From the sequence record MW630116.1: 64,000 bases of DNA, one strand, 5' to 3'. The notes beneath the pieces were generated by a model. It had not been told where the DNA came from. It saw nothing but the letters and a program-made list of their open reading frames with translations, and ran no database searches. Below, piece after piece: positions 14,952 to 36,571 of the stretch. Positions within the stretch are counted from its first letter, which is position 1. The number at the start of each line of letters is the position of its first letter. This DNA comes from Escherichia phage vB_EcoM-ZQ3. The position numbers and the translations under genes were made by a program.

Positions 14952-15503
14952 TTACTTAAAGATATTTATAATCGCTTTGACAATAGATTTGTTTTCAAGG
15001 TCAGGGAATTTAGGGAATTCACCGCCGAGATGTTCATGTTTTTCTAAAAGGGCAAAGAATTTTTTGAGCTCTTTAAATTTTCGTTTTTCTTCTCTATTAG
15101 CAACCTCTGCGTCAATAAGAGAACTTAAAACACTGAATAATTTATAGAGTTCATGAATTTTCTTATCACGTTGAACTACGCATTTATACGCTTCATCTTC
15201 CTTCCACCCGGCGTCGGTCCAAATGTCAAATTCACCAGGTTCTTCTGTAGTAACATTTTGAAGAGCGCCCGGAGTGTCAATAACAATTTTTTGCTTATCA
15301 TAAGTCCATACTGTTTTTCCACGATGGTCTTCAACATATACCCATTCTTGTTCGCGTTCATCAAATACAACAGCATAGCCTTCTTTAGGGTCTAAAGGTT
15401 TTTTAACTGTTGAATGAGCAGGAAGACCAAGACCTTTAATCAGTTTGTAATTTTCTTCTTTGTAAAATTCTTTTGTGTCAAAATAATAATGATAGATTTT
15501 CAT
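14952..15503 (-). CDS. 38: gp38 tail fibre assembly chaperone (T4 type)
   Basis: 183-aa ORF MKIYHYYFDTKEFYKEENYKLIKGLGLPAHS...FFALLEKHEHLGGEFP; length equals T4 gp38; adjacent to gene 37. Confidence 0.88.
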   Translation of the reverse strand: MKIYHYYFDTKEFYKEENYKLIKGLGLPAHSTVKKPLDPKEGYAVVFDEREQEWVYVEDHRGKTVWTYDKQKIVIDTPGALQNVTTEEPGEFDIWTDAGWKEDEAYKCVVQRDKKIHELYKLFSVLSSLIDAEVANREEKRKFKELKKFFALLEKHEHLGGEFPKFPDLENKSIVKAIINIFK

Positions 15504-15530: not shown

Positions 15531-18500
15531 TTATGCTAAACGAACGATATAGTTAAAAGCAATGTTTTTAACCGTGTTTTCTGTATTACCTGTACTATTT
15601 ACAGTGATAGTATGACCATGCGAACCAATAGCTACCGTGTGAGTATGAGCACCTATACCAACCGAATGGCTATGAGCACCAATACCAACGGTGTGGGCAT
15701 GGTTACCGGTCGTGTTGGTTACACCAGACCAGTTTCTTGAAGCGTTGAAGTTGACAGGGATACCATTAACAAAGTTATTACCAGTATACCCTCTAGAGCC
15801 TGCCTGACCACCGAGGTAGAATGCACCACTTGCTGTGTAGAAGCTACTGTTGTCACTTCTAAAGTAACCAAATGAACCAGAGATTTCCATATTACCTCTG
15901 TTGTGGTTATGGTTGCCAGTAGTGTTGGTTGTCTTAGTACCATAGTCGAAGCTACTTGTTGTCTTAGTACCATAATCAAAACTTGACGTGGTTTTAGTAC
16001 CCAAGTCAGTACTCGAAGCAGATGCGCTATGGTTATGAGCCTTAACACCGTCTGCTTCTGTACTTAATACAGCACGCCCGGATGGTTTACCTTTAATAGT
16101 TTGACCACGCATATCCGGAATAGTACCGGTAGGATATGCTATAGCGAGCTTAGGATAAGCTGAAGTATCAAAAGTCTGACCTTCCATTATGGCATAACCT
16201 TCAGGAGGTGTATCAGTAGGCCAAGGAATCGGAGCTCCAATAGGATAACTTGAAACAATATCAGTTTTAAGTGATTCAATCGTACTGTTTAAGTTAGCAA
16301 AATTACCAGAACCACCCGTAATATTGCCGTCAGTTCCTAAAGTTGTGTTGCCTACAATAATTTTACCAGGTAAGCGGAAGTCACCGGTGCGACGGAATTC
16401 CCAACTTATATCGGTGCCACCCGTACTAGTGCCTTGGTGGTAATGAACACGGAAATCTCCTTGATTAATTAATGTCCCAATAGAATAAGTGCTATCACCT
16501 TGCACATAACGCTGTTTAACAATAGGAATATATTCAGAAGTAGCAGTACGCTCTATATTCATATAAATCGGAGCTCTGACGTTTACGTCGTTCTGAGATG
16601 CAAATGAACCGCACCCTGCTGGACGAACGCCGTCAGAAGCCTGAATATCTATATAAGCGTTTTGCCCTAATTGCATATTATAATTAGGACTTATGCGAGA
16701 ATTAGAAGTCAAAACAACAAGTTTACTATCATTATCAACAGTAACCATATTGCCGCCTAACCCATCATCACCTAATGTAACAGAATGACGCATTTGCACC
16801 ATACCATTATGAAGAGCAATACTTAACGGGCGAAGATTACCTATTTCGCCATTTTCTCCTTGGTCTTTAAGAGTAGGAATAATGTGCAATGCTGTTTCTG
16901 AACGACGGAAAATAGCACCATATTCAGCGTTCCAAATTCTTAGTGCGTTTGCTGTTCCGCCAAATTTAGCTTGTCCATTTACAGTCAATCCATTATTTGC
17001 AACTAAGCTTGATTCGGTTGTAATAGAACCAGAAGCAACAATACTACCTGAAGTTAATAAACCGCCATTAACTCGAAATTGAATAGGTCCGACAGTAGAA
17101 CCCGATCCAGGAGCAACTCGCTGAGAATAAAAATGGTAACCTTGCCCATCTGATACTTCAAAAACTGTTTCACGACTACGATCACCAGATGCGTTAAATG
17201 AATTACCCCACGCTTTAACAGTTACATAGCTTTTATTCTGCCCAGCACGAGTACCGCCTTCCCACAAAATTTGCTTAGTGCCATCAACTGTAGTAGTTGG
17301 AGCGAATGTTAGCCCAGCAGTAGAATTATTAGCTGCTAAATATACACCATTATATATTGAAAGCTGCTTAACAGATGTAATACCGCCATCAGCATAAAAC
17401 ATCACATTATTTGCACCGGTTACCAATTTCAAAATACCCGGGTTAATTTCCATACCTTGTTGGGTATTGATATTCATCTGACCTGTACCGCGGAAATAGT
17501 GGTTCATTTTACCGCCAGCATTGTACCCGATATGGGTTTGACCGTCTCCAGCATTGTTATTATCAGCTTGTGTTTGAACTGATAAAAGAGCGGCGTTGGT
17601 TCCAGGCATAATCCAAGTTGTGCCTTGGTCCTCGGAACGACCAAATATACCTTTACGAGTACTACGGAAACTGTCAGGAGTAATAGAAGCGACAGATTTA
17701 CCTGAACCAACTAAATCATAAACACCGGTTTTTTTGTATGATAAACCCGTCCCGTTATCGCCTAGAGCTAAATAAGCACCGAATCCTAAAGCGCCACCGT
17801 TACCGTAATCGCTTGACGGATATCCTTCAGTCACGGTCCCAATGGCTACACTATTGCGGACGATCATTCGGCCGTCATTACGAATACCATATAGTTTAAA
17901 TAATGGTGTATTACCAGTCCACCAAGAAACTTCATCAGCCAGGCCAGTTTGAGCTGTACAAATTTCATGGTAAATAGTTCCGCCCGATTTAGCACGAACT
18001 TTACGAAGATAGTTTACACCATTTGTTTCTCCGGTTCCAGGATAAACATAGTTAACCAAAGATTGAGAATCATATTGCCCAAAGGCTTTAGAATCATGAT
18101 TAATTAAATTAACACTAATAGATGGTGTACTAATAGAAGTTAAAGCAGTTAATTTGCGTGCCTGGAAAATACCGCCATCAGTAGAAATGAAATGAAATTC
18201 TGAATTTTGAGCCCCTGCTGCGGTTCCTTGGCGAACACGCATTGTAATTACGCCTTCATTTTCAGACTGCGGTTTTGAATATAAAACACCTCTCTCTGAT
18301 CCATCTGTATTTTCAAACCAAAGATGGGCATTGGAAGTATCATTTGTTGCTCTTGTGTAAAATGACCCTCGCATAGATCTAAAAACTAAGGCGGATACGC
18401 CTTCAGTAGAACCAATAGGTCCATTTACGGTCATTCCGCCGGTTTGTACATAATCGCCGTTTAATTTCAAAAGACCATTGATAGTTACATTTCCATCAAC

Positions 18501-18671
18501 TTGGCCGCCTTTAGCAAAACCCAGATCAATGATATTTCCTGAATCGTCTTTAGTAAAAATTGTTCTATCTTTTAAGTTTATAGCCAATTCACCTTCGGCT
18601 AATACTGAAGCAGCAGGACGTGCACCTGCAGTTTTGCTTCTTTTAAATTGTATTTGTTTTAAAGTAGCCAT
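15531..18671 (-). CDS. 37: gp37 long tail fibre distal subunit (receptor-binding, His-box tip)
   Basis: 1046-aa ORF; C-terminal His-box repeats GNHNHN / [33 protein letters not shown] typical of T4-type gp37. Confidence 0.9.
15931..16020 (-). repeat. three tandem copies of a roughly 30-bp in-frame repeat inside gene 37 (encodes [10 protein letters not shown] repeats)
   Basis: gtcttagtaccatagtcgaagctacttgtt / gtcttagtaccataatcaaaacttgacgtg / gttttagtacccaagtcagtactcgaagca (plus strand); protein shows ...[25 protein letters not shown]... Confidence 0.8.
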
Positions 18672-18679
18672 AAGTCCTC

Positions 18680-19345
18680 TTAATAATAGCCGAAATCTTG
18701 AACAGAATCTTTAATTACAATCTGGTCGAAACGAGGAACATGATTAGCCTCAGACGCCGGATTCTGTGAGAAAAAGTTTGGTGCTGTTAAAGTACCAGCC
18801 ATGGTATCGCCAGAACGCAATACACGGGAATTTGCGTTATCTGTAACAATATTTATTCGTCCATCAACGTAATCTTTTCTTGTGAGATCATTCGCTGCTA
18901 TAGGAGCAGTAGCGTTAGAACGGACAGGTCCAGTTGCATAAACCCCGCCCTTAGTGCTGATATCACCGGTACGAGTGTTAATAACCACAGTACGTAATGC
19001 AGAACCTTGAGAAGATTTAAATCCAATGCCATACCATGAAACAATATCAATGTTTGTCATATCATATGTTGCAGCATCACCGTTGCCCGGGAAAATACCA
19101 CTTTGATTTGTGTTATTTACGGCATAAGGTATTTGCACACCATTATTAAATGTTACTCGAGAGGCATACGTACCACCATTAGCTTTAGAAACGAAATCGT
19201 TATCAGCAGCTTGTGGTTTATTATATTCTGAATAGAGTTTAAACGTTTTATACAGGACGTCATCACCTGCTGGCATTAAAGGGAAATTACCTTGATGCCA
19301 TATAACGGCACCACCAGTTGTACTACCAGCTTTTAAATCGGCCAT
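18680..19345 (-). CDS. 36: gp36 long tail fibre hinge connector subunit
   Basis: 221-aa ORF (T4 gp36 221 aa), between genes 35 and 37; late promoter upstream. Confidence 0.8.
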
Positions 19346-29359: not shown

Positions 29360-30216
29360 AACAATACCAATACCTAATTAAAGATATCTTAGAAAATGGC
29401 TACGAAACAGACGACCGTACAGGTACCGGCACTATTGCCCTGTTCGGAACTAAATTACGTTGGGATCTGACTAAAGGATTCCCTGCGGTAACAACTAAGA
29501 AATTAGCATGGAAAGCTTGTATTGCCGAGTTACTGTGGTTCATGTCCGGTTCTACTAATGTTAACGAATTACGTCTTCGTACCCATGGTAGTCTAATTGA
29601 AGGTAAAACTATTTGGGACGATAATTACGAAAATCAGGCAAAAGACCTTGGGTACCATAGCGGTGAACTTGGTCCTATATATGGTAAACAATGGCGTGAT
29701 TTCGGCGGTGTAGACCAATTAGTTGAAACAATCGACCGTATTAAAAAATTACCAACTGATCGTCGTCAAATTGTTTCTGCCTGGAATCCAGCTGAAATAA
29801 ATCAAATGGCACTTCCTCCTTGCCATATGTTCTACCAGTTCAATGTGCGTAATGGTCATCTTGATTTACAATGGTATCAACGCAGTGTAGATGTTTTCTT
29901 GGGCCTGCCGTTCAACATTGCCTCGTACGCTGCCTTGACGCATATTGTAGCGAAGATGTGTAACCTTATCCCAGGTGATTTAGTGTTCTCAGGCGGCAAC
30001 ACGCATATCTACAGCAATCATGTAGAACAATGCAAAGAAGTTCTTCGTCGTGAACCTAAAGAGTTGTGTGAATTAGTTATTAACGGATTACCATACAAAT
30101 TTAGACATCTATCAACCGAAGAACAAATCGAATATGTATTAAAACTTCGTCCTAAAGACTTTATTCTTAAAAATTACGAATCACATCCAGCTATCAAAGC
30201 TAAAATGGCGGTATAA
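29356..30216 (+). CDS. td: thymidylate synthase (intron-free)
   Basis: 286-aa continuous ORF MKQYQYLIKDILENGYETDDRTGTGTIALFG...; same length as spliced T4 TS; no interruption. Confidence 0.92.
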   Translation: MKQYQYLIKDILENGYETDDRTGTGTIALFGTKLRWDLTKGFPAVTTKKLAWKACIAELLWFMSGSTNVNELRLRTHGSLIEGKTIWDDNYENQAKDLGYHSGELGPIYGKQWRDFGGVDQLVETIDRIKKLPTDRRQIVSAWNPAEINQMALPPCHMFYQFNVRNGHLDLQWYQRSVDVFLGLPFNIASYAALTHIVAKMCNLIPGDLVFSGGNTHIYSNHVEQCKEVLRREPKELCELVINGLPYKFRHLSTEEQIEYVLKLRPKDFILKNYESHPAIKAKMAV

Positions 30217-30217
30217 A

Positions 30218-30472
30218 ATGATTTTACGTTTTATTAATTCATATGGCACCACAATTTTTGAAATGAAAAATCCTACAGAACTAGATATCCCTTCGCCAAA
30301 TAGTGAAATCACAGTTAAAGGTGAACGATTCATTTGCTATTCACATGAACGAATTTATGACTATCGTGAATTTTGTGGTGGTTACGGTATAGAAAAAGAA
30401 CCGTTGGTTTATTTCGATATCACAGTCTTGACACCTAAAGAATACGAAGAAATTATTGCTGAGGATAATTAA
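30218..30472 (+). CDS. hypothetical protein (84 aa)
   Basis: ORF track; starts 2 nt after td stop. Confidence 0.5.
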   Translation: MILRFINSYGTTIFEMKNPTELDIPSPNSEITVKGERFICYSHERIYDYREFCGGYGIEKEPLVYFDITVLTPKEYEEIIAEDN

Positions 30473-30487
30473 CGCTTCAGTTTAAAA

Positions 30488-30524
30488 GTGTATAATAAAT
30501 TAACGGGATAAATACTATCCCGTT
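30488..30524 (+). promoter_or_regulatory. TGnTATAAT-like -10 (tgtataat) followed by 9-bp perfect hairpin (aacgggata / tatcccgtt) in nrdA leader
   Basis: aagtgtataataaattaacgggataaatactatcccgtttggagtaatg; hairpin 30502-30524. Confidence 0.5.
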
Positions 30525-30559
30525 TGGAGTAATGTCTATCAACCTATACTGAGGACTAT

Positions 30560-31984
30560 ATGCAAGTAACTAAGAGCAGTGGTGTATCCCAAAATTTTGA
30601 TGCACAGAAAATTATTCAAGTCTTAACTTGGCAATGTGAAGGAACACAAATTGACCCATATGAATTGTACGAAGAAATTAAGACCCATCTTGTTGACGGG
30701 ATGAGCACCAAAGATATCCAGAAGATTTGTATTAAAGTTGCAGCTAACTCGATTTCTGTCGAAGAACCTGATTATCAGTATGTCGCCGCCAAAGGGCTAA
30801 TGTTTGCACTCCGTAAAGATGTATACGGACAGTTTGAACCGCCTGCTTTTATCGACCATATTTCTTATTGTGTTAATGAAGGCAAATACGACCCTGAGCT
30901 GTTGTCTCAATATTCAGCAGAAGAAATCATTTATCTCGATTCACAGATTAAACATGAACGAGACTTTGACCTGACTTATGCTGGTGCTATGCAGCTTAAA
31001 GAAAAATATCTAGTTAAAGATAAAACAACTGGGAAGATTTATGAAACTCCACAGTTTGCTATCATGGCTATTGGTATGGCCTTACATCAAGACGAAACTC
31101 ATGACCGTTTGAAACATATTATTCGTTTTTATGATGCCGTTTCTACTCATCAAGTTTCATTGCCTACCCCAATTATGGCAGGTGCTCGTACTCCGACTCG
31201 CCAGTTCTCTAGTTGTGTAGTTATTGAAGCAGGTGATTCGTTAAAATCTATTAACAAAACTTCAGCATCAATTATTGAATATATTTCTAAACGAGCTGGT
31301 ATCGGTATCAACGTTGGTATGCTTCGTGCAGAAGGTTCTAAGATTGGTATGGGTGAAGTTCGACATACAGGTGTTATTCCATTCTGGAAACATTTCCAAA
31401 CTGCAGTAAAATCTTGTTCTCAAGGTGGTATTCGCGGTGGTGCTGCTACAGCGTATTATCCGATGTGGCACTTAGAAGTAGAGAACCTATTAGTTCTGAA
31501 AAATAACAAAGGTGTGGATGAAAACCGTATTCGACATATGGACTACGGAATTCAGATTAATGACCTTATGATGGAACGCCTTGGTAAAAATGATTATATT
31601 ACTTTATTTAGCCCTCACGAAATGTCAGGCGAACTATACTACTCGTTCTTTGAAGATCAAGATAAATTCCGTGAGCTTTATGAGAAAGCTGAAAAAGACC
31701 CGGCAATCAGAAAGAAAAGAATCAAAGCACTAGAACTCTTTGAATTGTTCATGACTGAACGTTCTGGCACTGCTCGAATTTATCCACAGTTTGTTGATAA
31801 CACGAATAACTACACTCCATTTATTCGTGAAAAAGCTCCAATTCGTCAGAGTAACTTATGTTGTGAAATCGCTATTCCAACTAATGATGTGAATAGCCAA
31901 CAAACCCGTTTAATCAAAATTAAGAAGTCGGATGTAGCTAAGTTTTATGAAGCTAATCCTGGCGGTATAATTCAAAGCAAATAA
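30560..31984 (+). CDS. nrdA: ribonucleotide reductase alpha subunit, N-terminal fragment (NrdA-a), ending just after the NLCxEI active-site motif
   Basis: 474-aa ORF; ATP-cone and catalytic core up to ...QSNLCCEIAIPTNDVNSQ, then about 25 unrelated residues and a stop. Confidence 0.88.
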   Translation: MQVTKSSGVSQNFDAQKIIQVLTWQCEGTQIDPYELYEEIKTHLVDGMSTKDIQKICIKVAANSISVEEPDYQYVAAKGLMFALRKDVYGQFEPPAFIDHISYCVNEGKYDPELLSQYSAEEIIYLDSQIKHERDFDLTYAGAMQLKEKYLVKDKTTGKIYETPQFAIMAIGMALHQDETHDRLKHIIRFYDAVSTHQVSLPTPIMAGARTPTRQFSSCVVIEAGDSLKSINKTSASIIEYISKRAGIGINVGMLRAEGSKIGMGEVRHTGVIPFWKHFQTAVKSCSQGGIRGGAATAYYPMWHLEVENLLVLKNNKGVDENRIRHMDYGIQINDLMMERLGKNDYITLFSPHEMSGELYYSFFEDQDKFRELYEKAEKDPAIRKKRIKALELFELFMTERSGTARIYPQFVDNTNNYTPFIREKAPIRQSNLCCEIAIPTNDVNSQQTRLIKIKKSDVAKFYEANPGGIIQSK

Positions 31985-32795
31985 AGTACACAGACCGTTA
32001 ATAAATAATCCATAACAAGAGGAAAAGTTATGGATTATTCTAAAATTTACAATAACCTTATTTCTAAAGCTAAGAACAGAAAATTAGATTGCTATACCGA
32101 ATCACACCATATTATACCTCTGTGTATTGGTGGTTCTGATACAAAGGAAAACCTGGTAGATTTGACACCCGAAGAGCATTACATAGCTCATCAATTATTA
32201 GTAAAGATATATCCAGATAATTATAAATTGGTATTTGCCGCTAATATGATGTGTGTTTATTCTGAAGATAATATTGAACGAAAGAACACCAATAAACGCC
32301 ATGGGTGGCTTAGAAGAAAATTGGCTATTTCTGTATCTGAAAATAATAAAGGCAAACCAGCTTGGAACAAAGGTATTCCGGTAACTGACGAGCATAGAGA
32401 AAAACTTCAAACAACTTGGGTATTTACTTTCCCAGACGGTCATGAAGAAATCCATAAAGGCCTAAGAGAATTTTGCGAACTACATTCACTCAATGCTTCG
32501 GCAATGTCGGCCGTATGCAAAGGCAAAAGGTCTCAACATAAAGGCTTTAAGTGTCGAAAGCTTGATAATATCTCTGAAAACGATAATCAAGAATACGTCA
32601 GTAAACCTCATCCAAAGGGATTAAAACCCCATAACTTAATTGCTGTAAAAATAAACGGTATAGAATATCAATCAATACATCGAGCATCTAAAGCTCTAGG
32701 AATATCTCGAAAAAAGGTAGAAGAATTAAATGAATATTGATTATGAATTTGTAGATGAATTTTACGAAGATGATGAGTATACAACAATACAAGTT
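31985..32795 (+). mobile_element. homing endonuclease gene insertion splitting nrdA (approximate boundaries)
   Basis: Segment between loss of NrdA homology in nrdA-a and its resumption in nrdA-b (around ...ENKGEVGLCTLSAF); contains the HNH ORF plus a new stop and a new start. Confidence 0.7.
32030..32740 (+). CDS. free-standing HNH homing endonuclease (MobE-like) inserted within nrdA
   Basis: 236-aa ORF; N-terminal HNH motif ESHHIIPLCIGGSDTKENLVDLTPEEHYIAH; C-terminal basic repeats (NKGKPAWNKGIPVTDEHREKL, IAVKINGIEYQSIHRASKALGISRKKVEE) typical of homing-endonuclease DNA-binding modules. Confidence 0.82.
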   Translation: MDYSKIYNNLISKAKNRKLDCYTESHHIIPLCIGGSDTKENLVDLTPEEHYIAHQLLVKIYPDNYKLVFAANMMCVYSEDNIERKNTNKRHGWLRRKLAISVSENNKGKPAWNKGIPVTDEHREKLQTTWVFTFPDGHEEIHKGLREFCELHSLNASAMSAVCKGKRSQHKGFKCRKLDNISENDNQEYVSKPHPKGLKPHNLIAVKINGIEYQSIHRASKALGISRKKVEELNEY

Positions 32796-33719
32796 ATTGA
32801 AAACAAAGGTGAAGTGGGCCTCTGCACTCTTTCTGCCTTTGTTCTTGATAAATTTGATTGGCAAGACCAAGATAAAATTAATGAACTTGCTGAAGTACAA
32901 GTACGTGCACTTGATAACCTGTTAGACTATCAAGATTATCCGGTTCCAGAAGCTTTAAAAGCTAAAAAGCGTCGAAACCTCGGGGTTGGTGTTACGAACT
33001 ATGCTGCATGGTTAGCTTCTAACTTTGCTTCATATGAAGACGCTAACGATTTGACTCATGAATTGTTTGAGAGATTGCAATATGGCCTTATCAAAGCTTC
33101 AATCAAACTCGCCAAAGAAAAAGGACCTTGTGAGTATTATTCAGACACTAAATGGTCTAGAGGCGAATTACCTATCGATTGGTACAATAAAAAGATTGAC
33201 CAAATCGCAGCCCCGAACTACGTCTGTGACTGGGAAGAACTTCGAGCTGAACTCAAAGAACATGGAATTCGTAACTCAACGTTGTCTGCACTCATGCCTT
33301 GTGAGTCAAGCAGTCAAGTATCAAACTCTACAAACGGGATTGAGCCCCCGCGCGGTCCGGTAAGTATTAAAGAATCTAAAGAAGGAAACTTCCGTCAGGT
33401 TGTTCCTAATATAGAACATAACATGAGTCTTTACGACTACGCGTGGAAACTTGCTAAGAAAGGTAATAAACCTTATTTGACCCAAGTTGCTATCATGTTG
33501 AAATGGGTGTGCCAATCTGCTTCTGCTAATACTTACTATGACCCTGCAGTATTTGAGAAAGGTAAAGTGCCAATGTCAGTAATGCTTGACGATCTGCTTT
33601 ACTTCTGGTACTTTGGCGGAAAAAACCTCTACTATCATAACACTCGTGATGGGTCAGGTACAGATGACTATGAATTAGAAACACCTAAAGCTGAAGATTG
33701 TTCTGCTTGTAAGCTTTAA
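32730..33719 (+). CDS. nrdA: ribonucleotide reductase alpha subunit, C-terminal fragment (NrdA-b)
   Basis: 329-aa ORF; after about 20 novel residues resumes NrdA homology at ...GLCTLSAF... and runs to the C-terminal redox tail ...EDCSACKL; start overlaps HNH ORF end by 11 nt. Confidence 0.88.
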   Translation: MNIDYEFVDEFYEDDEYTTIQVIENKGEVGLCTLSAFVLDKFDWQDQDKINELAEVQVRALDNLLDYQDYPVPEALKAKKRRNLGVGVTNYAAWLASNFASYEDANDLTHELFERLQYGLIKASIKLAKEKGPCEYYSDTKWSRGELPIDWYNKKIDQIAAPNYVCDWEELRAELKEHGIRNSTLSALMPCESSSQVSNSTNGIEPPRGPVSIKESKEGNFRQVVPNIEHNMSLYDYAWKLAKKGNKPYLTQVAIMLKWVCQSASANTYYDPAVFEKGKVPMSVMLDDLLYFWYFGGKNLYYHNTRDGSGTDDYELETPKAEDCSACKL

Positions 33720-33774
33720 GACTTTTGATTATAATTTACTCATGGATGAGTTAATAACTAAGTGAGAAAATATA

Positions 33775-34953
33775 ATGAGTACAGTTTTTAACACACAACA
33801 AGTCGATGTTTTGAATGAACCAATGTTCTTTGGTTCTGGTCTTGGCCTCGCACGTTATGATATTCAGCGACATAAAGTTTTTGAAGAACTTATTGAAAAG
33901 CAATTGTCGTTTTTCTGGCGCCCAGAAGAGGTAAACTTGATGTTGGACTCTGCGCAGTTCAATAAGCTTCCTCAGTTCCAACAGGACATCTTTACAAACA
34001 ATCTTAAGTATCAATCATTATTAGATTCTATCCAAGGCAGGGCCCCATCTGCGGTACTTATGGCACTGATTTCCGACCCTTCATTAGATACGTGGGTTGC
34101 AACATGGACATTCAGTGAAACTATTCACTCTCGTTCGTACACTCATATTATGCGAAATCTTTATACCGATCCATCTAAGGTATTTGATGAAATTGTATTA
34201 GACGAAGCAATCATGAAACGAGCTGAATCAATAGGTAAATATTACGATGATGTTCTGGTTAAAACTCGTTATTGGGAAAACGCTAAAGCCGATATCGAAT
34301 ACCAAAAAGAAATTAATGCAGACGAAGACGTTATTGAAGATGCTATTGAGCATGAGACATATTGGAAGCGTGAGCTAATGAAATCTCTTTATCTTTGCCT
34401 TCATGTAATTAACGCCTTAGAAGCTATTCGTTTTTACGTATCATTTGCATGTACTTTCAACTTCCATAAAAATATGGAAATTATGGAAGGTAATGCAAAG
34501 ATTATGAAGTTCATTGCTCGTGACGAACAACTCCATCTCAAGGGTACTCAGTACATTATCCGTCAACTTCAATCTGGTACTGACGGTGATGAGTGGGTTC
34601 AAATTGCTAAAGAATGTGAACAAGAAGCAGTTGACATTTTTATGGAAGTAAATAGTCAAGAGAAGGAATGGGCTGCACACCTCTTTAAAGATGGTACATG
34701 TCCAGGTATCAATACGCAGAGTATGTGTGCTTTTGTTGATTACTTGACTGTGTCTCGTATGAAACAGTGTGGTTTGCCATGTCCAATTACTGATGCTCCG
34801 ACCAAGCATCCGTATCCTTGGATTCGTGAATATCTGAACTCTGATTTAGTTCAAGCAGCTCCTCAGGAAGTTGAAATCAGTTCTTATCTTGTCGCACAAA
34901 TTGATAATGATGTAGACCAAAATGTAATCAATTCATACAAAAAATATTTCTAA
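33775..34953 (+). CDS. nrdB: ribonucleotide reductase beta subunit (intron-free)
   Basis: 392-aa continuous ORF with class Ia R2 features; T4 NrdB 388 aa. Confidence 0.9.
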   Translation: MSTVFNTQQVDVLNEPMFFGSGLGLARYDIQRHKVFEELIEKQLSFFWRPEEVNLMLDSAQFNKLPQFQQDIFTNNLKYQSLLDSIQGRAPSAVLMALISDPSLDTWVATWTFSETIHSRSYTHIMRNLYTDPSKVFDEIVLDEAIMKRAESIGKYYDDVLVKTRYWENAKADIEYQKEINADEDVIEDAIEHETYWKRELMKSLYLCLHVINALEAIRFYVSFACTFNFHKNMEIMEGNAKIMKFIARDEQLHLKGTQYIIRQLQSGTDGDEWVQIAKECEQEAVDIFMEVNSQEKEWAAHLFKDGTCPGINTQSMCAFVDYLTVSRMKQCGLPCPITDAPTKHPYPWIREYLNSDLVQAAPQEVEISSYLVAQIDNDVDQNVINSYKKYF

Positions 34954-34957
34954 GGAC

Positions 34958-34971
34958 GGGACTTCGGTCCC
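34958..34971 (+). terminator. CUUCGG hairpin (gggacttcggtccc) after nrdB
   Basis: 5-bp stem with UUCG loop; weak T-run (actttatta) and the denA start follows within 10 nt, so possibly a stability element rather than a strong terminator. Confidence 0.45.
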
Positions 34972-34979
34972 ACTTTATT

Positions 34980-35389
34980 ATGAAAGATATCGCCGCCGAA
35001 TATTCCTTTATTAAATATACAGAATTGGAGCTATTAGAAGATGCAACAATTAAAACAGTTGATGTCCCTAATAAGAAAAATGTCATATATGCTATTGCTA
35101 TAGATGACGAACTTGTGTATATTGGTAAAACCAAGAATTTAAAGAAACGCATTAACTATTATCGAACAGCCATAAATCGAAAAGACCAGACTTCAGATTC
35201 AAGAAAATCACTTATGATTTTGGATGCCTTAATGCAAGGCAAAAAGGTTGAATTCTGGGCCCGCCAATGTTTTGACCTTTCAGTCACCAACGAACTTGGT
35301 TCAATGACCATCGCAACAATGGACCTTGAAGAACCACTTTTTATCAAAAAGTTCAACCCGCCTTGGAATATCCAACATAAGAAAAAGTA

Positions 35390-35390
<1 letters not shown>
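34980..35390 (+). CDS. denA: endonuclease II (GIY-YIG family)
   Basis: 136-aa ORF (T4 DenA 136 aa) with GIY-YIG-like motif VIYAIAIDDELVYIGKTKNLKKRINYYR; position after nrdB as in T4. Confidence 0.8.

Positions 35391-36571
<1,181 letters not shown>

What the first reader, a model, noticed from the sequence alone, without database searches (positions are those of the whole stretch)
15931..16020. In-frame tandem 30-bp repeats in the receptor-binding tip region of gp37
Three consecutive copies of a 30-nt unit (two near-perfect, one diverged) encode [10 protein letters not shown] repeats immediately N-terminal to the His-box region of the long tail fibre distal subunit. Tandem repeats in adhesin tips can expand or contract and may alter fibre geometry or host range.
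Basis: seen in the sequence. Interest (0 to 1): 0.4.

Follow-up and report, generated by a model that had tools for sequence, protein, structure and literature searches.

The report
Structural repeat in gp37 needle stem
The 10-residue [10 protein letters not shown] repeat is real, but it is an old, conserved building block of the iron-binding needle stem of a T4-type tail fibre, always matched by one histidine box on the returning strand, and shows no sign of being an unstable tract.

Summary
The repeat is real but sits on the minus strand at 15927-16001, inside a 1046-aa gp37 gene (15531-18671). It encodes [10 protein letters not shown] twice, then GTKTT.

At the DNA level the two full copies are only 21/30 identical, and all 7 differing codons are synonymous. 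Each copy is 28-29/30 identical to the copy at the same position in other T4-like phages. The duplication is therefore old and is not being homogenised or slipped.

The tip matches the T4 gp37 crystal structure 2XGF (E=1e-94). The repeat lies in the needle stem, between the first and second His-x-His boxes, and not in the receptor-contacting head.

Copy number does vary among relatives, from 0 to 5 ten-residue units. It always varies together with the number of 9-residue His boxes on the descending strand:
- The observed classes (first-to-second box spacing / number of boxes) are 22/2, 32/3, 42/4, 52/5 and 72/7.
- In 243 proteins the slope is 9.99 and r is 0.9998. A further 130 loci show the same classes.
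- No mismatched combination was found.

The window has 2.5 units and 4 boxes. Relatives with the same head type have 1.5 units and 3 boxes.

The repeat is therefore one half of a modular needle rung that sets stem length. This is an ordinary member of a known family; the pairing rule is a modest new observation.

The parts
15531..18671 (-). gp37-type long tail fibre distal subunit (1046 aa)
   Evidence: ORF, translation. The C-terminal 289 aa match T4 gp37 tip 2XGF at E=1.1e-94. Pfam Collar PF07484 matches aa 812-859.
16095..16238 (-). Collar (knob, D10-like) domain, aa 812-859
   Evidence: Pfam PF07484, E=9.6e-12. Coordinates.
16029..16037 (-). Ascending His box 1 (H879-N-H881), at the base of the needle
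   Evidence: Aligns with T4 HSH (H883/H885 by my numbering of the 2XGF chain).
15972..16001 (-). Repeat unit 1, [10 protein letters not shown] (aa 891-900)
   Evidence: It is 28-29/30 nt identical to unit 1 of phages CJY920, JM17 and TuIb.
15942..15971 (-). Repeat unit 2, [10 protein letters not shown] (aa 901-910). This is the unit absent from T4 and from relatives with the same head type.
   Evidence: It is 28/30 nt identical to TuIb unit 2 but only 21/30 to its own unit 1. It appears as a 10-aa gap in P0005, P0007 and P0008 in alignment A1.
15927..15941 (-). Half unit GTKTT (aa 911-915), leading into TNTTGNHNH
   Evidence: It is present in every length class, including the 22/2 class that has no full unit.
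15903..15911 (-). Ascending His box 2 (H921-N-H923), just below the head
   Evidence: It starts 42 residues after the start of box 1.
15702..15902 (-). Head (tip) domain, aa 924-990, the hypervariable presumed receptor-binding part
   Evidence: This head type is shared with prophage fibres P0004-P0014 and phage CJY920. Only one phage record covers the tip at the DNA level, at 80% identity.
15600..15707 (-). Four consecutive descending 9-residue His boxes: [36 protein letters not shown] (aa 989-1024)
   Evidence: One box is absent, as a 9-aa gap, in same-head relatives that carry one unit.
15654..15680 (-). Descending box GAHSHSVGI, the box that pairs with the extra ascending unit. The gap placement among the boxes is ambiguous.
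   Evidence: Alignment A1. Coordinates.
14952..15503 (-). gp38-type tail fibre assembly chaperone (183 aa), immediately downstream
   Evidence: Pfam Caudo_TAP PF02413, E=7.7e-5. The same 183-aa ORF follows gp37 in CJY920.
18680..19345 (-). gp36 (221 aa), immediately upstream
   Evidence: Pfam Phage_T4_gp36 PF03903, E=3.3e-36.

Best explanation
The [10 protein letters not shown] repeat is the ascending-strand half of a modular rung in the stem of the gp37 needle.

In this fibre tip each chain leaves the collar, runs up to the head, turns, and runs back. The trimer therefore forms a six-stranded antiparallel needle whose axis holds iron ions bound by His-x-His boxes.

Each 10-residue [10 protein letters not shown] unit on the way up lies beside one 9-residue G-x-H-x-H-x-V-(G/A)-I box on the way down. 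Adding or removing a rung needs both halves. It changes the stem by one predicted metal site and, by my estimate, about 2-2.5 nm.

This phage has 2.5 units facing 4 consecutive boxes, with six His boxes in all. T4 has 1.5 units facing 3.

Shown here: homology to the solved T4 tip, the position of the repeat in the stem, the strict paired length rule, and the age of the duplication.

Inferred: the residue-level register, the length per rung, and that a mismatched needle would misfold.
For: 1. Homology. The tip matches 2XGF at E=1.1e-94, with the collar, His boxes and C-terminus aligned and one extra decapeptide relative to T4.

2. The pairing rule in proteins. In 244 complete homologous proteins, the spacing from box 1 to box 2 and the number of terminal 9-spaced boxes fall into these classes: 32/3 (91), 42/4 (141), 41/4 (3), 52/5 (6) and 72/7 (2). 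The one remaining protein lacks box 2. There is no 32/4 or 42/3. Over the 243 proteins that have a second box, the fit has slope 9.99, intercept 2.03 and r=0.9998.

3. Independent loci. 130 loci from viral and genome collections (74 distinct sequences) add a 22/2 class and show the same rule. The three apparent exceptions are two degenerate boxes and one 31/3 case.

4. Repeated coupling. Among 52 head-sequence clusters, 6 contain both 32/3 and 42/4 forms. At cluster level, Fisher's exact test gives p=9e-14.

5. Direct alignment. Against relatives with the same head type, the window has +10 aa ([10 protein letters not shown]) on the ascending arm and +9 aa (one GxHxH box) on the descending arm.

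6. Register. Islam et al. 2019 report T4 contacts G921-F970 and H929-G964 and D11 limits 882/1009. This gives i+j of about 1892, which places T4 unit 895-904 opposite residues 988-997, the H989/H991 box (my inference).

7. Age of the duplication. Unit 1 and unit 2 differ at 7 synonymous and 0 non-synonymous codons. Each is 28-29/30 identical to the unit at the same position in other phages.
Against: - No coordinates could be inspected, so the register rests on two published contacts and on domain limits.
- The AlphaFold2 monomer model was uninformative (pLDDT 56.6, pTM 0.24), as expected for an intertwined trimer.
- Part of the coupling could come from recombination that swaps heads as cassettes and so keeps both stem halves from one parent, rather than from structural selection alone.
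- The sequence sets contain many related prophage fibres, so counts of sequences overstate the number of independent events.
- The Bartual et al. 2010 structure paper was not held, so I could not check whether it already describes these units.
Confidence: 0.85

Rival explanations
1. This is a hypermutable in-frame tandem repeat. The 30-nt units would expand and contract by slippage or unequal recombination, producing fibre-length or host-range variants within populations.
For: - The repeat is in frame, and its unit number differs among relatives and from T4.
- Units 2 and 3 share a 14-nt exact match (GGTACTAAGACAAC) spaced 30 nt apart. That could in principle support short-homology recombination in a T4-like phage.
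- Tetart et al. 1996 (cited) showed that duplications in the T4 gp37 C-terminus can expand host range.
Against: - The full copies share only 21/30 nt, and their longest shared exact run is 8 nt.
- Each copy corresponds to the copy at the same position in other phages rather than resembling its neighbour.
- All four DNA-level relatives examined have the same number of units.
- Unit number never changes without a matching His-box change in about 370 sequences.
- The closest pairs that differ in length class are only about 80% identical in the head, so no recent transition was caught.
Confidence: 0.07
2. The conserved repeat, like the His boxes, mainly serves as a patch of nucleotide homology. 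It would let unrelated phages and prophages exchange head cassettes by recombination. On this view the pairing rule is a by-product of double crossovers that keep both stem halves together.
For: - Unit DNA is 87-97% identical between phages whose heads differ.
- The same stem types occur with many head types: 52 head clusters, 6 of them mixed.
- The head is flanked by a direct TNTTGNHxH repeat that is 22/27 nt identical.
- The gene is strongly mosaic. Only 3 of 730 matching phage records cover at least 80% of it.
Against: - Peptide conservation is stricter than homology alone would need. In the matched units G1, K3 and F8 never vary, and D9 and Y10 are near-invariant; within the window's two copies every codon difference is synonymous.
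- Single crossovers inside heads or stems should produce mismatched classes, and none are seen.
- This role is compatible with the structural explanation rather than an alternative to it.
Confidence: 0.06
3. This is a chance or low-complexity Ser/Thr-rich stretch with no specific role.
For: The region is rich in Thr, Ser and Gly.
Against: - The window has two identical decapeptides in tandem.
- [10 protein letters not shown] is the commonest unit, with 183 occurrences across the homologues.
- The motif is part of a solved structure.
Confidence: 0.01

Closest known systems
Bacteriophage T4 gp37 receptor-binding tip (PDB 2XGF; collar, needle and head with seven Fe-binding His-x-His sites)
   Same: It has the same collar, the same first His box followed by [22 protein letters not shown], the same terminal boxes [40 protein letters not shown], and a gp38-type chaperone gene downstream.
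   Different: - T4 has 1.5 units facing 3 nine-spaced boxes, plus an extra pair of 14-spaced boxes near the head, making 7 boxes in all.
- The window has 2.5 units facing 4 boxes and no 14-spaced pair, making 6 boxes in all.
- The window's head is unrelated and larger: 67 aa between the flanking boxes, against about 35 in T4.
gp37 of phage TuIb (X55191) and of many Tequatrovirus/Mosigvirus phages (CJY920, JM17, slur03)
   Same: They have the same 2.5-unit and 4-box stem. Unit DNA is 28/30 nt identical, position by position, to TuIb.
   Different: The head domains differ, except in CJY920, which shares the head type at about 80% DNA identity.
Side tail fibre tips of enterobacterial prophages, and what appears to be the phage lambda side tail fibre (Stf)
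   Same: The collar-needle-head module is the same, with [10 protein letters not shown] units and 9-spaced His boxes. These fibres make up most of the homologues found.
   Different: They sit on unrelated fibre shafts (lambda-, Mu- or P2-like N-termini). Prophage fibres with the window's head type carry one unit and three boxes.
Tetart et al. 1996 host-range duplications in the T4 gp37 C-terminus
   Same: These are also tandem in-frame duplications in the same protein region, thought to arise at short His-box homologies. The window's head is flanked by such a repeat. The paper is cited and its content is recalled from memory.
   Different: Those duplications copy a head-containing segment and arose in the laboratory. 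Here there is a single head, and the repeat is an old stem element.
Bas63 (Felixounavirus) long and short tail fibre tips
   Same: They have a T4-like collar, needle and head with a variable number of His-x-His motifs. The authors suggest that motif number scales with needle length.
   Different: No pairing between ascending decapeptides and descending boxes is described in the passages read.

Membership tests
T4 gp37-type receptor-binding tip (collar-needle-head) | Significant sequence similarity to the solved T4 gp37 tip | tested here: met
   2XGF chain A at E=1.1e-94, in two stretches covering the collar, both needle arms and the C-terminus.
T4 gp37-type receptor-binding tip (collar-needle-head) | Phage tail collar domain preceding the needle | tested here: met
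   Pfam PF07484, E=9.6e-12, aa 812-859.
T4 gp37-type receptor-binding tip (collar-needle-head) | His-x-His boxes on both the ascending and descending arms around a variable head | tested here: met
   Two ascending boxes (aa 879, 921) and four descending boxes (aa 991, 1000, 1009, 1018).
T4 gp37-type receptor-binding tip (collar-needle-head) | Dedicated assembly chaperone gene (gp38/Tfa type) immediately downstream | tested here: met
   A 183-aa ORF at 14952-15503 matches Caudo_TAP PF02413.
T4 gp37-type receptor-binding tip (collar-needle-head) | Intertwined trimer with iron ions on the axis | not testable with these tools
   Only a monomer model could be made, and it was of low confidence (pLDDT 56.6).
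Slippage-prone (contingency-type) tandem repeat | Near-identical nucleotide copies in tandem | tested here: not met
   Full copies share 21/30 nt, with a longest exact shared run of 8 nt.
Slippage-prone (contingency-type) tandem repeat | Copies more alike within a genome than between genomes, or copy number differing among close relatives | tested here: not met
   Each unit is 28-29/30 identical to the unit at the same position in other phages, against 21/30 to its neighbour. All four DNA relatives have two units.
Slippage-prone (contingency-type) tandem repeat | Length heterogeneity within a population | not testable with these tools
   No reads are available.
Tetart-type His-box-bounded duplication of the gp37 head | Two or more tandem copies of the head-containing segment between His boxes | tested here: not met
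   There is a single head (aa 924-990), flanked by one TNTTGNHxH on each side.

The most novel reading that the evidence does not exclude
The strict one-to-one pairing of a 10-residue ascending unit with a 9-residue descending His box may be an undescribed design rule of gp37/Stf-type needles. It was seen for 2, 3, 4, 5 and 7 rungs, with no mismatches in about 370 sequences. Stem length may be a selected, tunable trait, for example the reach through LPS or capsule layers. If so, paired rungs could be added or removed deliberately to engineer fibre reach.
Probability: 0.3. Interest if true: 0.4.

Novelty: new member of a known kind. Interest (0 to 1): 0.2.

Why it matters
For annotation, this shows that an apparent tandem repeat in an adhesin is a fixed structural element and should not be flagged as a variable tract.

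For phage engineering, the pairing rule gives a concrete constraint. Chimeric gp37 or Stf tips should keep the ascending unit count equal to the descending His-box count minus two. Needle length could be changed only by adding or removing both halves of a rung.

The biology is otherwise that of a well-studied family.

Tried and rejected
- AlphaFold2 monomer prediction of the tip with a 45-sequence alignment gave pLDDT 56.6 and pTM 0.24. This was too poor to read strand register, so I ran no fold search on it.
- The Bartual et al. 2010 structure paper could not be retrieved by DOI or by a guessed PMC id. The register was inferred instead from contacts quoted by Islam et al. 2019.
- My first regex anchors mislabelled some sequences as exceptions, with an 8- versus 9-residue spacing error and a wrong first box. 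Inspecting the sequences and anchoring on the PDMRG motif removed them.
- A search for near-identical pairs differing in rung number found none closer than about 80% in the head. No recent gain or loss event could be dissected.
- One literature query failed on term length.

Full report
**Observation**

The flagged span lies inside a 1046-aa ORF on the minus strand, 15531-18671. Tandem Repeats Finder reports a period-30 array at 15928-15985 (2.0 copies, 83% matches, score 79).

Read on the coding strand, the sequence is ...[45 protein letters not shown].... The units are 16001..15972, 15971..15942 and a half unit at 15941..15927.

The description 'two near-perfect, one diverged' is true of the peptide only:
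- The two full DNA copies share 21/30 nt.
- They differ at seven codons, all synonymously.
- Their longest shared exact run is 8 nt.

**What the gene is**

The C-terminal 289 residues match the crystal structure of the T4 gp37 receptor-binding tip, 2XGF, at E=1.1e-94. Pfam finds the phage tail collar domain at aa 812-859.

The neighbouring genes are gp36 (18680-19345), a 183-aa gp38/Tfa-type assembly chaperone (14952-15503) and holin t. Other parts of the window are 95-97% identical to T4-like coliphages.

The gene is mosaic. Only 3 of 730 matching phage records cover at least 80% of it. Only one record, phage CJY920, matches the whole tip at the DNA level, at 80% identity.

**Where the repeat sits**

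Published descriptions of the T4 tip give these limits:
- collar or knob, D10: residues 811-881 and 1010-1026
- D11: residues 882-1009, a six-stranded antiparallel stem with seven iron ions
- small tip: residues 932-959

Each chain runs up to the tip and back. The window protein has His-x-His boxes at aa 879 and 921 on the way up, and at 991, 1000, 1009 and 1018 on the way down. The repeat (aa 891-915) therefore lies in the ascending arm of the stem, between boxes 1 and 2. It is not in the head (aa 924-990).

T4 has one decapeptide fewer ([15 protein letters not shown]).

**Comparative test**

I collected three sets of homologues:
- 120 proteins from a word-indexed search
- 150 cluster representatives from an exhaustive HMMER search
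- 158 loci from viral and genome collections

For each complete tip I measured two things: the spacing from the first to the second His box, and the number of terminal boxes spaced 9 residues apart.

Among 244 proteins the classes were 32/3 (91), 42/4 (141), 41/4 (3), 52/5 (6) and 72/7 (2). One further protein has no second box. Over the 243 proteins that have a second box, the fit has slope 9.99, intercept 2.03 and r=0.9998.

The 130 classifiable loci (74 distinct sequences) gave 22/2, 32/3, 42/4 and 52/5. There were three apparent exceptions:
- a box with a 2-residue deletion in a 'Candidatus Erwinia dacicola' genome
- a box with His replaced by Tyr in E. albertii
- one 31/3 case

No 32/4, 42/3 or similar mismatch was seen.

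The heads fall into 52 sequence clusters, and six of these contain both 32/3 and 42/4 forms. The window's head type is one of them. The window and CJY920 have 2.5 units and 4 boxes. Prophage fibres P0004-P0014 have 1.5 units and 3 boxes.

Alignment A1 shows the difference directly: a 10-residue gap ([10 protein letters not shown]) in the ascending arm and a 9-residue gap (one GxHxHxVxI box) in the descending arm.

**Register**

Islam et al. 2019 report that T4 G921 contacts F970 and that G964 contacts H929 of a neighbouring chain. Together with the D11 limits 882/1009, this gives an antiparallel register of i+j about 1892.

On that register the T4 unit 895-904 lies beside residues 988-997, which contain the H989/H991 box. 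This is my inference, and I did not check it against coordinates.

It explains the rule. One ascending decapeptide covers one descending His box, and the ascending strand needs one extra residue per rung. My reading is that this is because it takes the outer path, which I did not check against the structure.

From the published dimensions (needle about 20 nm long, knob about 4.5 nm) and about 64 residues per arm, I estimate one rung at roughly 2-2.5 nm.

**Is it unstable?**

The evidence says no:
- Window unit 1 is 28-29/30 identical to unit 1 of CJY920, JM17 and TuIb.
- Window unit 2 is 28/30 identical to TuIb unit 2.
- Units 1 and 2 within the window share only 21/30.

The duplication therefore predates the divergence of these phages, and the copies have not been homogenised. 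All four relatives examined at the DNA level have two units. The closest pairs of sequences that differ in rung number are only about 80% identical in the head, so changes are rare and old.

Units 2 and 3 do share a 14-nt exact match, so a 30-nt deletion or duplication by short-homology recombination is conceivable. It would give a mismatched needle of a kind never observed.

**Relation to what is known**

- The motif is part of the solved T4 structure. It is present in identical form in TuIb gp37, in what appear to be phage lambda side tail fibre genes, and in many prophage fibres.
- Variable numbers of His boxes, and the suggestion that they scale with needle length, are already in the literature.
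- Tandem duplications in the gp37 C-terminus that expand host range were described by Tetart et al. 1996 (cited). Those copy the head-containing segment, which is single here.
- I did not find the paired 10/9 rule stated in the papers I could read. However, the primary structure paper was not available.

**Verdict**

The repeat is real, the coordinates are slightly off, and the gene identification is correct. The repeat is an ancient, conserved structural module of the needle stem, and its number is locked to the number of descending His boxes. It is not a tract that freely expands and contracts, and nothing here ties it to host range. This is an ordinary member of a well-known family, with one modest and possibly new regularity.

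Noticed in passing
L085-L096, L129 (genome-contig loci): The same Stf-like fibre tip (59% identity to the window) appears in unrelated taxa: Chromatium, Pseudomonas, Shewanella, Neobacillus, Paenibacillus, Kitasatospora and Bradyrhizobium. It lies on contigs of about 48.4-48.5 kb or on very small low-coverage contigs. This looks like phage lambda DNA contaminating the assemblies rather than real prophages.
   Followed up: no
window 15903-15929 and 15693-15719 (minus strand): The head domain is flanked on both sides by the same nonapeptide TNTTGNHxH, with 22/27 nt identical. A direct repeat like this could mediate duplication or exchange of the head cassette.
   Followed up: partly
L111 (Candidatus Erwinia dacicola) and L140 (Escherichia albertii): The descending His boxes are degenerate: GAH-TV with a 2-residue deletion in L111, and AYSH with His replaced by Tyr in L140. 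The ascending unit count is unchanged, so these may be decaying prophage fibre genes.
   Followed up: no
window 15531-18671: gp37 is strongly mosaic. Only 3 of 730 matching phage records cover at least 80% of the gene, and the tip's head type is otherwise seen mainly in prophage fibres with a shorter stem.
   Followed up: partly
window 15444-15484: There is a weak period-15 tandem repeat (2.7 copies, 80% matches) inside the gp38-type chaperone gene.
   Followed up: no
window 30000-36000: In several close relatives (JM17, AV111) this 6-kb nrd/RNA ligase region aligns in two pieces spanning about 7.1 kb, with homing endonuclease genes annotated there. The window may therefore lack an endonuclease insertion that they carry.
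   Followed up: no
P0039, P0079 (prophage fibre tips): These are the longest stems seen. Five ten-residue units are arranged as 20-residue super-repeats (DLGxKxxSSFDYSTKTTNxP), facing seven consecutive His boxes.
   Followed up: partly
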